Below, piece by piece: positions 38,746 through 62,760 of a stretch of 64,000 nt of DNA. This DNA is from Octopus vulgaris. Its lineage: Eukaryota. The DNA lies in assembly GCA_951406725.2 (NCBI GenBank), contig OX597816.1, positions 169,570,001 through 169,634,000 of the forward strand, in the 5' to 3' direction. Each line of letters opens with the position of its first letter. The first letter of the stretch is position 1. The notes beneath the pieces were generated by a model. That model saw only the letters and a list, made by a program, of their open reading frames with translations, was not told the DNA's origin and ran no database searches. Made by a program: the position numbers and the translations under genes.

Positions 38746-39167
38746 TGTATGTATGTATGTATGTATGCATGTATGTATGTATGCATGTATGTATGTATGT
38801 ATGTATGTATGTATGTATGTATGTGTGTATGTAGGTATGTGTGTATGTATGTATGTATGTATGTACGTACGTGTGTCATTGTGTGCATGTATGTATGTAT
38901 GTATGTATGTATGTATGGATATATGCACATACAAGTGGTTTGTTTAAGAGGGAGGGCAAAGTCGATTGAATCTACATTACTGTGTTATTTGTAAAATGTC
39001 TAATAGTGTATTAGAAAGTATTTCCACTTCGAACAGTAAGACATTACATATTTTGGATATGTGTAGAGTTTAGAGTTCAGTCAACTACTTTCTACGAGAT
39101 ATACTTTGTCTTTTCCATAAATAATAAAAAGAAATCGCAAGAAAATAACATCAATGATGATTTATTT

Positions 39168-39461
39168 GCAGCGTGGGAGGTGTTTAAAAGCCATTTAGAA
39201 ACACACGAAAGCCGCTAGATTCACTTCAACATTTAAGTTTAATTTGCCAAAATATTTTCGTCGCTTTGAGACCGCGACCTGTTCACTGACCAGTACGGAA
39301 TTTTGTCGGTGAACAGGTCGCAGTCTCAAAGCGACGAAAATATTTTGGCAAATTAAATTTAAATGTTAAAGTGAATCTAACGGTTTTGTGTGTTTCTTAA
39401 ATGGCTTATAAACACCTTCCACGCTGCGATCTCAGGTCACTTGCTATGCAAGTACATCTCC
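39168..39461. mobile_element. Fold-back PLE-like insertion with two G3-C8 hammerhead motifs and 12-bp TSD
   Basis: Inverted repeat 39168-39427; plus HHR 39302-39352 tttgtcg-GTGAACA-gGTCGC..GCGAC-GAA AATATT T-tggcaaa; TSD gatgatttattt at 39156-39167 and 39462-39473. Confidence 0.8.
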
Positions 39462-40074
39462 GATGATTTATTTATTTTACATAAAAGTGTGAAGAGACGT
39501 CAAGTACAGTATAATTCAATATAAATTGAACATAAAATATATGTAAAAGAATAATTAATGTAGACATTATACTACTTCATAACAGTTAATAAGTTTAATT
39601 TATAATTTAATTAGCGCAATTGTGATAGTAAATGACAATTAAACGTAAATAGAAGAAATGAATACAAATGTATGTGTGAATATGTATACGTATGTAAGTA
39701 TGTATGTATATTTATGTGTGTGTATATTTATGTATGTATTTGTACACGTATACATGCATACGTGCATATATATAATTGTATGAATGTGCGCTCACATATG
39801 CATACACACATATCTTTGTGTGTATATGTACGCATGTATGTTTGTATACCTACTTAACAGTAATTTACATTTGTTTTTATTTTTCGCATCGTATTGATTA
39901 GTTTTTCTTTTGTTTGTATGTTCTATCATAAATTGTTTTATATGCATCGTATCTCCGATGCGTTTATTTGAACCAAAACGTTCATTCACAGAAGGCCGCA
40001 TGCATGCATTCACGCTACGTAACCACATACTCGCACACAAACACCGATATACCTTTTAAGCTCACACTAACACC

Positions 40075-40787: not shown

Positions 40788-41508
40788 ATGATGGCGGCCC
40801 CCTCGTTATCGAGTATGGCCATTGCACGTAGCTTATCTGTTATTGGTGCTGTGATCGAATGTGACTTTTTAGCCCAGCTAAAGATCTACAATGTCTTGTA
40901 CAGAATTGGCAACTAAAACCTTTACCGGTAATAGCCGGCTGTAGTTGTAACTGGGCTTCATGTACCTTTGCATGTCGTTTAAGTTCTCCTGCCGAGGTAA
41001 GCTTTGTCTTACTGGAATCCGATGCCGCCTGTATCTCATCAGCCTTCTTATTCCACCACATATCCCTCATCTGAGAGAGCCTTTGCTTCACACGTGATTT
41101 CACATCCTTGAGTTCTCTATGCATCACTTCTCTCTCCTGTGGCTTTGCTGGCAAATAGCATGACAAAGTACGTCTTTTATCAGCCAATAAATCGTCTATA
41201 TGTTCATCATCTTCTTTAAACCAATCTTGATGCTTTCTTTGTATCAATCCCAGAACTTTCTTGCCTATATCATAAACTGACTTTTTAAGGGCCGGCCAAT
41301 CCTCCCCAATATCTGCAGCATTCATTTCCTCTCGTGAAGTTCTCTTCGCACTATTACACCTAAAACGATCAACATTCTGTCTTTTAGGCAGCCCGGATTT
41401 TATGTTTTGTGACTAATTTCACTTTTGTACGTACAAGGCGGTGGTCAGTCCAACATTCAGCTCCACGAAGAACACGAACACACTGCACATCTTGTCTATC
41501 ACGCATCC
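40788..41508 (-). mobile_element. Internally deleted RTE LINE (linker fused to terminal C2H2 finger, no RT)
   Basis: GAECWTDHRLV, RKHQDWF, WWNKKADEIQAASD joined in frame to CQFCTRHCRSLAGLKSHIRSQH*; short 3' UTR. Confidence 0.82.
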
Positions 41509-51374: not shown

Positions 51375-51876
51375 ATGTGAGACCTACATCAAGTGCCTGG
51401 AGGAGGTAGTGCTGTCCTGGGTCAACAGAGTGGCTGCTGGAAGACCCTATATCTGGTAACCAAGCTCTGCTCCCTCCCACACATGCAGGAGAATCATGAC
51501 TATCAGACAATCTCTGCGACTACATCACCCCTTACATCTGACCGCCAAACTCCACACACAGCAAATCTCTTGATTATTATAAGTGGGGTGCAGTTGAACG
51601 AGAGACCAACAAAACTCCTTGTAACACCAACGAAGGCAAGGATTATGGCAGAATTCATCAACTTAAACAAAGAAACCGTCCAGAATATTTGCAAGAGATT
51701 CCGGAATTGTTTGGAGACCGTGGTTGAAGCCAATGACGATTTTATTGAATAAATTTGCTCTTTAGTATTTCAAGATGTATTTATGTAATTTTGTTAAATA
51801 TATCTGTTAAAATAAGATGTCAAAGTTATTTTCATTTTTCGTAATTTAGACGACAGTATATTCACCGCACCCTATA
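51375..51876 (+). mobile_element. Tc1/mariner transposase 3' fragment
   Basis: YIKCLEEVV, PPNS..LDYYKWGAVER, ICKRFRNCLETVVEANDDFIE*; TIR-like end caccgcaccctata. Confidence 0.8.
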
Positions 51877-52956: not shown

Positions 52957-53179
52957 TGTTTTTCTGTATATATATTTATTTACCCCCTCTTTGAAAGATG
53001 ATCAATCACCTCCCCTGCCCCCAATAATAACAATGCCAACTACCACTCCTTAGATTTTTCTGCTTGTTGAACCATTCATTCATAAACTTCGAGAAACAAT
53101 ATAAAATATATTAAAACATTAAAACTATGTACAGTGTATGCATTTTGCTTCTTTTGTTGTATATATATATATTTTTCTC

Positions 53180-54226
53180 AGAAACGTCCTGATCAAGGAG
53201 ATGTTATTTGCTGATGATGCCGCTCTGGTAACACACACAGAAGAAGCCCTCCAAAGGCTCATTAACTGTTTTGAGCAAGCATGTAACGACTTTGGCTTAG
53301 CTATCAGCCTTAAGAAGACCAACATCATGGGCCAGGCTACATCGGACATCCCAAACATACATATTGGAGACATACATATTGGATTACAGGAGGTGGAGAA
53401 GTTTACCTATCTTGGCTCTACCGTCACTTACAACCTATCCCTTGACGCTGAGCTCAATATACGCATTGGCAAGGCAGCTGCTGCGATGGCCCAACTCTCC
53501 AAACGGGCTTGGGACAACAATAAGCTGACCAAGACCACGAAAATGAAGATCTACCAGGCATGTGTACTCAGCACTCTACTGTATGGAAGTGAGACCTGGA
53601 CGCTATACACACGCCAAGAGCGTCGCCTGAACATCTTTCACCTGCGCTGCCTCCGAAAAATCCTCCGCATCAAATGGCAAAATCATATCCCCAACAAAGA
53701 TGTCCTCAGGCAAGCAGGAATACCAAGCATGTTTGCACTCCTCACACAAAGACGTATGAGATGGCTTGGGCATGTTAGCCGTATGAAAGATGGCAGAATC
53801 CCCTAGGACATACTCTACGGAGAGCTTGCTAGGGGTACTAGGTCTGTGGGTAGACCGATCTTACGTTACAAGGATGTTTGCAAAAGGGACATGAAGGCCT
53901 GCAACATCAATATTAGCGGTTGGGAGGCAGTTGCCGGCAACCGTGGAGAATGGCGACGTACCGTAAAAGAGGGAATACAAAGGAGTGACAGAGAGAGAGA
54001 GGAGAAATGGAAAGAAAGGAAGAGACGTAAACAAGAGACTATGGCACTACAACCAGCCAGGAACAGTCTTCGCTAAATTTGCGGTACCTGCCAGAGGGAG
54101 TGTTTGTCCAGGATAGGACTACACAGCCACAGCAGGAAATGTATCAGGACATGAAATATAAAAGCCGGACTAGACTACTTCATGCGCAACTCCATTGTCT
54201 CCCGAGACAGAAAGGATGCCAATACA
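53180..54226 (+). mobile_element. 5'-truncated, weakly decayed RTE LINE with 13-bp TSD
   Basis: LFADDAAL, FTYLGS, LLYGSETW, RWLGHV, CGTCQRECLSRIGLHSH; stop at 53804-53806; TSD atatatttttctc at 53167-53179 and 54227-54239. Confidence 0.95.
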
Positions 54227-60224: not shown

Positions 60225-62760
60225 TCATTATTCAGTTTTATTTCAAGATTTCTTGCAAGTAGAGAAAGAGCAGGTTTCTAACCTAGATCCAAGACTCCTT
60301 CATTGAACTTTATGGGATCTGTTTCTGCTTTAATGCGTTTTGGTGTAATGTTAAAGAGAGCGGGGTCAATTGAGATGAAATAATTGTGCCGCATGATTTA
60401 TGTTGTGGGCGGATAGCACGGGGACCAAGTCTTGGGTGTATCTTAAAGGTGATGCCAACATCATTTGGGCACTGCTGATGGAATATTTTCCACATCATGC
60501 AGATGATATAGCGCTCGCTTACGGCGGCGTTGGAGAAAATAAAACTTGACGACCCCAAAAGTTAAGGCCTGTCATGCCATCTATTTTTTTGTATTTGACC
60601 TTTAAGGTGCTTCAACTTTCATGATACTTTGTTTCGTGTGGGGAGACCACAGTGGACAAGAGTATTCAAGGTGAGGTCGGGCAAAAGAGAAGAAGAGAAG
60701 GATAGTGGTGTGGATATCTCTCGGCTGGCAAGTTCTGAAAATCCAGGAACACATCCTGCGGGCCATGTCGACTTTGCTGTTTATATTAGTGACCCAGCTT
60801 ATGTTGTTCACAATTACTCCCAAGTCTCTGATGTTGTTGGATACCTTGAGGGTTTCACCTGAAGGAATGGAGTATGGGAGTTTCAGGGTATCTTTTTTCC
60901 GAAGTGGATTAACTCAAATTTGTCCTCGTTCAGCAGCATATTCTTTTCTGCTCATTGGATGGCAGCCTGTAAATCTGACTGAAGGCATGTCCGGTCAACC
61001 ACTTCATTGATGACCTTCTGTATCTTGGAATCGTCTGCAAAGATTCTTATGTTGCTGTGTTTGATGATGTGAGGGGTGTCATTGATGTAGTTGATGAAAA
61101 AAAAGTGGGACCAATACAGTAACTTGTGGAGCACCAGTACTGACTTTGGCTGGGCTTGATTTTACTCGTTCGACAATGTTGGATTGCTTTCTTAAGAGAA
61201 TCTTATGATCAACCCTGTCAAAGGCCTTGCTCAAAACAAGGTAGATGACATCGATGTTGTCGTCCTTTCCCAAAGTTCTCAAAATGTCAAAGTGAGGCAG
61301 GAGCTGCGTTAGGCAGTTCCCTCCATTACAGAATCCATGTTGGTTGGGGTTCAGCAGTCTGTTGCTTTTAAGTGAGTGGGTTATTCCTGATCTCACCACC
61401 CTCTCAAATACCTTGATGGTATGAGAGTTCGGATGGTAGTTCACTGCAAGGGACTTGTTTCCTTTTTTGAAAACCGGGACAACAGACTGGGACAGAAAGT
61501 TTTAAGGAATATAGGCAGCATCCTGTCAGTTCCTCCACAGATTAGCAAATGGAGATGCAAGTTGGTGTCGACACACCTTCACGATACAAGCAGAGATCCC
61601 ATCAGGGCCTACTGCTGAAATGTGTTTAATTTCGTTTATTGCCGCTAAGACATCAGTGGTGCCAAACGTTATGTCCGATATAATATATTGGGGATTAACA
61701 TCACTGATACAGTCCAGATCGGCCAAACCAGGATTGCTGAAAACAGAGCAGTACTTTTTCTGCAGTATTTCACTCATGCTTTTGGAATTATCTTGGAGAG
61801 TGTCATTTTCATCAATTAGAGGGCCAACAGTGGAGACAGTGATCTTGTGATTTTTCGCAAAAGAGAAGAACACTTTGGGGTTGAGTTTGATTTTCTCAAC
61901 GGCCCATTTCCCCTCAGCTGTTCTTTGGTTATTGATGATGGTCTTCATGTATTGTTGGAGGCTATATCTTTTTGATTCGCGCAGGGCGATAACCATCGAA
62001 TATATGTGTGGCCGTTGGCAATATTTTAGTTTGTCAATTTTTATTTTCTTTTTTCTTTTTATTTTTCTGATAACAGTTTTTCTGATTTGGGGAATTCTGC
62101 ATTTAGTTTTCTTCACAGGTTTTGTGGAGTGTTTTGCACATAGGTTTGTCACGGTGTCTACAAAGATCTGCCAAGATATTTTGATGCTGGTGAAGGTGTG
62201 TGAAAGACCAGTCAACATATGATAGCTCGTTCATGATTGCGTCCCAGTCGGTACCATAGAGATCCATGTTATCAGATGGGGGTGGGTGAGAGCTGGAGAG
62301 ATGTCACTAGGGTTAGCTTTCGGATGGTGTAATCTCATGCTCTGAAAGAAGGAATGTTTCCACTATAATATTATGTAAAGTGTTAATGTAGTAGCAAAAC
62401 ACAAGGTCTAAAATGTTCTGATATCTTGGTGCAAGGGCAAGTTGGGACCAGAAAAACTCATTCATAAAGTTGTGAAGTGACTCTACTGCTTCTTTGTCAG
62501 TATTGAGGTGAGAGTACTTGGGTTCAAACTGATTGTGGACCATTCAACACAGGTTAGATTAAAATCTCCCATCATAATTATGTTATTAGAATGGCACTAT
62601 TGAATAAAGCATTTAATGCTGTTAAGGCATTCTTTAAAGCGCAGTTGGGGTATTTGAGGGGGCCTATACAGTCCAACTATTATCACGTCATTAGTTTTGA
62701 TGCACACGGTGACCGACTGACAGTAGCTGTTGGAGAATATCATATTCCCCTCTACCGAAA
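60225..62760 (-). mobile_element. Degenerate CR1-group LINE ORF2 (APE endonuclease plus RT)
   Basis: GLYRPP, IMMGDFNL, NILDLVF, IKLNPKVFFSF, VGPDGI, QHGF, SKAFDRVDH, FADDSK, RPHLEYSCPLWSP. Confidence 0.92.

What the first reader, a model, noticed from the sequence alone, without database searches (positions are those of the whole stretch)
39156..39473. G3-C8 swapped hammerhead in both arms of a TSD-flanked hairpin
Seen: GTGAACA in both arms, stem II GTCGC/GCGAC, palindromic AATATT stem III, 7-bp stem I with wobbles in the right arm, predicted UUU triplet, 12-bp TSD. Established: the C3G/G8C double mutant partly rescues activity in engineered hammerheads. Inference: a natural version fixed in a recently mobile family; I do not know whether it has been reported.
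Basis: partly seen in the sequence, partly recalled or inferred. Interest (0 to 1): 0.7.

Follow-up and report, generated by a model that had tools for sequence, protein, structure and literature searches.

The report
Swapped-core hammerhead in Penelope retroelement
This hairpin is a short, folded-back insertion of a Penelope-type jumping gene whose hammerhead RNA motif has two paired core letters swapped (G3-C8 instead of C3-G8) in thousands of genomic copies, a likely natural version of a swap I found in print only as an engineered mutant, predicted but not shown to self-cleave.

Summary
In detail: two inverted 123-nt arms, a 12-bp target duplication and a type I hammerhead fold with a G3-C8 core, predicted cut after 39345. 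The hairpin is not a new element type. [quoted passage not shown] G3-C8 is the family state: 1834 of 2028 pattern matches in the window's subfamily, none C3-G8, and 98 of the first 100 of 1945 in a younger subfamily. The sister PLE family in the same genome has C3-G8 at the same place; relatives from other hosts have C3-G8 or U3-A8, and the stems covary. The swap is therefore likely derived and compensatory. Caveats: 'both arms' follows from inverted copying; the arms lie on opposite strands and cannot dimerise with each other; copies were made from uncut RNA; cleavage is untested; the window copy belongs to the older wave. No printed natural G3-C8 was found in my searches, but one key paper was unreadable, and unchecked notes of this scan report G3-C8 in phages and other PLEs.

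The parts
39156..39167 (+). left target-site duplication
   Evidence: similar 11-15 bp flanking duplications in other hairpin copies
39168..39290 (-). inverted (fold-back) copy of the PLE 5' repeat, without tail
39246..39290 (-). left hammerhead motif, G3 = 39286, C8 = 39281, U17 = 39250, stem I cut to 4 bp by the fold-back junction
39291..39301 (+). remnant of the 5' leader of the direct copy (hairpin loop), starting a few nt below the site where most copies begin
39302..39352 (+). right hammerhead motif, type I, G3 = 39309, C8 = 39314, bulged G, 5-bp stem II, palindromic 2-bp stem III, predicted cut after 39345
39353..39427 (+). rest of the pLTR (5' untranslated region of the PLE ORF)
   Evidence: colinear with the ORF-bearing copy L108
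39428..39461 (+). PLE 'tail', with 22-nt and 5-nt deletions against other copies; holds the ORF's probable start codon (39446-48) and first five codons
39462..39473 (+). right target-site duplication

Best explanation
The stretch is a head-to-head insertion of the 5' repeat of a Penelope-like retroelement whose type I hammerhead motif carries a family-wide G3-C8 core pair, likely a compensatory swap from ancestral C3-G8 that would keep slow, dimer- or protein-assisted self-cleavage. Shown: family membership, position upstream of an RT + GIY-YIG ORF, fixation of G3-C8 in two subfamilies, C3-G8 or U3-A8 at the same place in related PLEs, covarying stems. Inferred: transcription starts about 25 nt above the core; the element's protein nicks AT-rich DNA and starts reverse transcription inside the RNA at one of two sites (arm end or tail end), copies about 150-210 nt of uncut RNA to the capped 5' end, and in about half the events folds back and copies its own product, giving the hairpin and an 11-13 bp duplication. 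Predicted: cleavage after U17 needs two same-strand copies pairing through the palindromic stem III; U17 rather than C17 avoids a G3-C17 Watson-Crick trap and may have permitted the swap. The window copy itself is probably inert, because a read-through transcript would lock the motif in a 120-bp helix.
For: Parent: L108 carries the motif, then ATG, RT motifs and a GIY-YIG domain (Pfam PF01541 E=0.0055); L169 has an open 1025-aa frame with GIY-YIG above the Pfam cut-off (25.4 vs 22.6 bits) and RT motifs; RVT_1 hits 6 of 16 homologues, below cut-off. ORF-linked copies L113, L123, L130 carry GTGAACA. Fixation: 1834 G3-C8, 117 G3-nonC8, 77 non-G3, 0 C3-G8 of 2028; 98 of the first 100 of 1945 in subfamily A2. 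Sister family B (54.7% identity over 815 aa; SH-aLRT 99) has C3-G8 in 98 of the first 100 of 3313 matches. Of 9 metagenome PLE loci, 4 show a motif at the expected place: 3 C3-G8, 1 U3-A8. On 9 aligned motifs the 3-8 pair is always Watson-Crick (CG 5, GC 3, UA 1) and 12 of 15 pairs change on both sides, 0 of 500 shuffles as high. Between A1 and A2, 5 of 8 differences over 127 columns fall in the 9-nt loop II and none in the rest of the motif. Inverted partner in 19 of 30 copies, tail in 14 of 30; arms agree at a variable site in 26 of 29 hairpins. Extra G in 21 of 34 copies at the common 5' end against at most 6 of 34 at each of the next seven positions. Engineered swap rescues activity (PMC11167929, PMC9901934); a G3-C8 variant depends on the base at 17 (PMC3884650, data not shown there).
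Against: No cleavage data. Copies do not start preferentially at the cut site: 30 matches against 67 and 28 at two control offsets, and only 3 of the 30 begin there from unrelated flank. The predicted fold extends stem I with G3.U17, which could be inhibitory. G8 makes up 43 of the first 100 non-C8 copies and the ORF-bearing L108 has G3.G8, so a mismatched core may also have been copied. Sister family B has C instead of A at position 9 in 96 of 100 listed, a hint of loose constraint. In the one PLE tested in vitro, hammerhead mutants did not affect insertion (PMC11167929). The 9 aligned rows represent 6 lineages, two are misaligned at the 3' end, and the structure came from these sequences. 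No difference in 42 columns is only modest evidence, given 3 in 76 downstream. The tree is a quick one, rooted at the midpoint.
Confidence: 0.65

Rival explanations
1. Same PLE origin, but the motif no longer cleaves: the fold is kept for another job (protein binding, promoter or translation signal) or by short-term inertia, and the swap was fixed without selection for catalysis.
For: Inserts come from uncut RNA; excess of G3.G8 copies including an ORF-bearing one; C9 in the sister family; cleavage dispensable for insertion in vitro (PMC11167929); very low in vitro activity of metazoan PLE hammerheads (PMC4209133).
Against: Two core changes that restore a Watson-Crick pair while U4, G5, A6, G10.1-C11.1, G12, A13, A14 stay invariant across proteins about 55% identical are hard to get by drift; three different Watson-Crick pairs occur at 3-8 among relatives.
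Confidence: 0.3
2. The hairpin is a MITE or foldback DNA transposon with terminal inverted repeats and the hammerhead likeness is incidental.
For: Long inverted arms and a TSD.
Against: 11 of 30 copies have no inverted partner, junctions differ from copy to copy, the tail sits on one side only, and the sequence runs straight into an RT + GIY-YIG ORF; 0 of 100 simulations give such a motif.
Confidence: 0.02
3. The short unit is an independent non-LTR retrozyme that multiplies through tandem repeats and circular RNA.
For: One locus (L128) holds at least 8 same-strand tandem units of about 170-190 nt; about 4000 short copies against about a dozen ORF-bearing ones.
Against: Copies are dispersed monomers or head-to-head pairs, not head-to-tail arrays; their ends match the PLE 5' end and the two PLE tail ends, not a circular permutation at the cut site.
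Confidence: 0.03

Closest known systems
[quoted passage not shown]
   Same: Type I topology, unpaired base between positions 9 and 10.1, G10.1-C11.1, short palindromic stem III, no loop-loop contact seen, place in the pLTR, pairs on opposite strands close together.
   Different: Core 3-8 is G-C. All 56 representatives in their Fig. S3 have C3 or U3; the only core covariation they report is U3-A8; their consensus is CUGANGA.
Natural U3-A8 hammerheads (Perreault et al. 2011, PMC3088659)
   Same: Natural covariation that keeps the 3-8 Watson-Crick pair.
   Different: U-A needs two transitions; G-C needs two transversions and removes the purine at position 8.
Engineered C3G/G8C double mutants (PAc hammerhead, PMC11167929; pairwise mutagenesis, PMC9901934)
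   Same: Same pair of changes; partial rescue, shown even in a PLE hammerhead.
   Different: Here it is the natural state of a multi-thousand-copy family; activity untested.
Inverted-pLTR insertions with tail and TSD of EN+ PLEs (PMC3846280, PMC8557442, PMC11167929)
   Same: Head-to-head inverted pLTRs, tail on one side that covers the first codons, short TSD, AT-rich or (TA)n targets, C-terminal GIY-YIG with a CX3CxxC linker.
   Different: Tail is about 55 nt here; nearly all copies are the bare 5' repeat. Clade (Neptune or Nematis type by the linker) not tested against reference PLEs.

Membership tests
EN+ Penelope-like element | Single ORF with RT and GIY-YIG endonuclease | tested here: met
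   L169 1025 aa: GIY-YIG above Pfam cut-off, RT motifs visible, RVT_1 below cut-off in 6 of 16 homologues; window sequence is colinear with the 5' end of such copies
EN+ Penelope-like element | pLTR with partial tandem or inverted copies, optional tail, short TSD | tested here: met
EN+ Penelope-like element | CCHH motif in the endonuclease; CX2-5CxxC linker in Neptune/Nematis | tested here: met
   read by eye from the translation; definitions from PMC8557442
EN+ Penelope-like element | Placement among reference PLE clades by RT phylogeny | not tested
   no reference PLE proteins at hand; trees hold only unnamed relatives
Hammerhead ribozyme, type I (PLE minimal form) | Stems I and II and short or palindromic stem III around the core | tested here: met
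Hammerhead ribozyme, type I (PLE minimal form) | U4 G5 A6, A9, G12 A13 A14, A15.1-U16.1, H17 | tested here: met
   33 or more of 35 copies at each position
Hammerhead ribozyme, type I (PLE minimal form) | Literal consensus C3 and G8 | tested here: not met
   G3 and C8; no Rfam hammerhead match. Filed as a variant, not as a canonical member
Hammerhead ribozyme, type I (PLE minimal form) | Watson-Crick pair between positions 3 and 8 | tested here: met
   9 of 9 aligned motifs, three pair types
Hammerhead ribozyme, type I (PLE minimal form) | Self-cleavage after position 17 | not testable with these tools
   no biochemistry; only assembled contigs of public runs were available
Non-LTR retrozyme | Head-to-tail tandem units each with a hammerhead | tested here: not met
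   window copy is head-to-head; one tandem locus (L128) among those examined
MITE / foldback DNA transposon | Fixed terminal inverted repeats in all copies | tested here: not met
   11 of 30 copies lack an inverted arm; junctions vary

The most novel reading that the evidence does not exclude
A catalytically active natural G3-C8 hammerhead, fixed by two transversions across an inactive intermediate (possibly still recorded in the excess G3.G8 copies), made possible by U17, and retained through two waves of retrotransposition; standard CUGANGA descriptors and Rfam miss this whole class, so animal genomes may hold many more.
Probability: 0.4. Interest if true: 0.65.

Novelty: new variant of a known kind. 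Interest (0 to 1): 0.5.

Why it matters
The C3-G8 pair sits in the hammerhead active site, and its swap is a classic laboratory test of that pair. A natural, family-wide G3-C8 form beside a C3-G8 sister family in the same genome gives evolutionary support for the pair and argues that PLE hammerheads are kept for their fold, although their role in transposition is an open question. It supplies a matched natural pair of RNAs for testing that role and the dependence on position 17. It also shows that about 3700 motifs in one genome escape CUGANGA descriptors and Rfam. The element architecture itself is already known.

Tried and rejected
Rfam scan: no hammerhead match. No second copy in the window. 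The 3.4-kb tandem at C2 was examined as a possible full-length element and proved to be a local duplication beside an unrelated PLE. Copies beginning at the cut site: no enrichment. G3.G8 copies as one subfamily: the 17 fetched (first G8 rows) share no other obvious letter and are not clearly older (93.4% vs 93.9% to one reference copy); unexplained. Sequencing runs: no RNA holder listed; only contigs could be laid, which cannot show ends or expression. Viral contigs: no relative. PDB by sequence: nothing for L169, weak RT hits for the profile. First tree included two wrong frames (L101, L181) and was redone without them and without the P-proteins. The 3' splice-site-like sequence just above the common 5' end was considered as the cause of the clustered ends; no shared upstream exon was found, so a capped start is preferred but splicing is not excluded. 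Papers not held: Lunse et al. 2017, Hammann et al. 2012; PMC5731806 was an unrelated paper; PMC13481778, PMC7151607, PMC6155905, PMC7229834, PMC10085705 and PMC6765202 showed no natural G3-C8 in the passages returned.

Full report
Observation. The window shows inverted arms at 39168-39290 and 39305-39427, a 34-nt tail on the right, and a 12-bp duplication at 39156-67 and 39462-73. The right arm reads as a type I hammerhead with core GTGAACA (G3 = 39309, C8 = 39314), a bulged G, a 5-bp stem II, GAAA, a palindromic 2-bp stem III, U17 = 39345 and a 7-bp stem I. The isolated motif folds into stems I and II. A descriptor allowing any Watson-Crick 3-8 pair finds these two motifs in the window and none in 100 of 100 simulated windows. 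Rfam reports no hammerhead among 53 matches at E<=5. The whole stretch folds into one hairpin of -201 kcal/mol, so a read-through RNA would bury the motif, and the two motifs lie on opposite strands.

Family. The genome is 2.8 Gb in 227 contigs; the best named homologues of the element's protein are from Octopus vulgaris (2 of 19 hits named), so the host is likely an octopus. Exact 28-nt patterns differing only at positions 3 and 8 give 1834 G3-C8, 117 G3 with another base at 8, and 77 with another base at 3 (44 A, 26 T, 7 C; none C3-G8): 1834 of 2028. A second subfamily with a different loop II gives 1945 matches with both positions free; 98 of the first 100 listed are G3-C8. These are lower bounds. 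In most copies stem I is fully Watson-Crick. Median departure from the column majority is 2.4% for 24 copies of the window's subfamily (6 duplicates dropped; 2 truncated outliers kept) and 0.8% for 22 arms of the second; both samples were picked by exact patterns and are biased low. Public runs under four organism labels hold the stretch; loose ends of contigs show the G3-C8 core in three labels and C8 in the fourth; one may be the window's own source.

Parent element. [quoted passage not shown] L169 has an open 1025-aa frame, cut at its 5' end, with GIY-YIG above the Pfam cut-off. ORF-linked copies L113, L123 and L130 carry GTGAACA; L108 itself has G at 8. The window element is therefore the 5' repeat of an EN+ Penelope-like element, ending within the first codons. 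Head-to-head inverted pLTRs with a one-sided tail and a short TSD are described for PLEs (PMC3846280, passages; PMC8557442, passages).

How the hairpin forms. Of the first 30 matches on contig C1, 19 have an inverted partner (7 of them are duplicates of one composite) and 14 have the tail; most 3' ends fall at the arm end or the tail end, which matches the two internal start sites of reverse transcription shown for the anole PLE (PMC11167929, main text read). The 5' ends cluster within about 14 nt of one site; 6 of 95 loci examined extend further upstream. Where copies reach that site without the upstream sequence, 21 of 34 carry a G in place of the template's C, against at most 6 of 34 at each of the next seven positions. 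I read this as a copied cap (the phenomenon is recalled from L1 work, not from a call); the upstream sequence also resembles an intron end, so splicing is not excluded. In 32 hairpins the arms differ by a median 4.7% and agree at a variable stem I site in 26 of 29 informative cases, as expected if one template is copied and then folded back.

Is the swap meaningful? A sister PLE family in the same genome (intact 1310-aa frames; 54.7% identity over 815 aa; SH-aLRT 99 in a quick, midpoint-rooted tree of 10 proteins) has a hammerhead at the same place with C3-G8 (98 of the first 100 of 3313 matches). Of 9 related metagenome loci, 4 show a motif behind the ORF: three C3-G8, one U3-A8. On 9 aligned motifs from 6 lineages, position 3-8 is always a Watson-Crick pair, 87.6% of cells pair and 12 of 15 pairs change on both sides; 0 of 500 shuffles reach this (two rows misaligned at the 3' end, structure taken from these sequences). 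Between the two G3-C8 subfamilies 5 of 8 differences fall in loop II and none in the remaining motif. G3-C8 is thus most simply derived from C3-G8. U17 is present in 35 of 35 family copies counted and common in relatives; PMC3884650 (passages) notes that a G3-C8 variant works better with G17 than with C17, so avoiding C17 may matter (inference).

Evidence against activity. Copies do not begin preferentially at the cut site: 30 matches against 67 and 28 at control offsets, and only 3 of the 30 start there from unrelated flank (read by eye). G8 makes up 43 of the first 100 non-C8 rows, far more than the opposite transversion at position 3 (7 of 77). The sister family has C9 in 96 of 100 rows. 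The predicted fold adds a G3.U17 pair. In print, PLE hammerheads cleave weakly (PMC4209133) and are dispensable for insertion in vitro (PMC11167929).

Literature. PMC4209133 (parts 1-2 of 4 of the text, parts 1-2 of 3 of the supplement) reports U3-A8 only, and none of the 56 motifs in Fig. S3 has G3. PMC3088659 (passages) reports natural U3-A8. PMC9901934 (passages) and PMC11167929 show rescue by the engineered swap. Nine searches, including the terms G3-C8, G3C8, GUGANCA, C3G, G8C and octopus, returned no natural G3-C8 in what I read; the supplement file of PMC8557442 has no match to the core. Also seen: bioRxiv 10.64898/2026.07.22.740005 (parts 1-2 of 5), passages of PMC7229834, PMC6765202, PMC6155905, PMC7151607, PMC10085705 and PMC13481778. 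Lunse et al. 2017, Hammann et al. 2012 and Przybilski and Hammann 2007 were not read, and their alignments may bear on novelty. Unchecked notes of this scan report natural G3-C8 in phages and behind other PLE-like RTs; I did not test them, and they lower the claim of uniqueness.

Verdict. The element is a known kind; the fixed natural G3-C8 core, set beside a C3-G8 sister family, is a new variant as far as my searches reach. PLE origin about 0.97; fold kept by selection about 0.9; still self-cleaving about 0.65; unreported in print about 0.6. Interest 0.5.

Noticed in passing
L173:2110-2158 (also L175, L179, L183, L186): The sister PLE family, with intact 1310-aa Asn-rich ORFs and over 3300 motif copies, has C instead of the conserved A at hammerhead position 9; metagenome locus L190 combines C9 with U3-A8.
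   Followed up: partly
G000 rows; L084-L100, L108: G3.G8 mismatched cores are far more frequent than the matching transversion at position 3; possibly an intermediate or a separate source copy; unexplained.
   Followed up: partly
L128:1741-3092: Array of at least 8 same-strand tandem units of the G3-C8 repeat separated by (TA)n, the arrangement that could form an active dimer.
   Followed up: no
L081, L082, L101: Two other minimal hammerhead-like motifs with U3-A8 cores, one beside a different PLE ORF, so this genome holds C-G, U-A and G-C forms.
   Followed up: no
L108:696-720: Branch-point-like and pyrimidine-rich sequence ending in AG directly at the common 5' end of the copies; may be both an initiator-like start and an intron end.
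   Followed up: partly
L053, L054, L064-L066, L075, L078, L050, L083: One particular hairpin copy with identical junction and flanks recurs many times on contig C1, carried inside a larger duplicated unit.
   Followed up: no
window 53123-53806 (+), 40840-41412 (-), 61079-62230 (-), 51381-51752 (+): Frames that look by eye like fragments of LINE-type reverse transcriptases and a Tc1/mariner-type transposase; not scanned.
   Followed up: no
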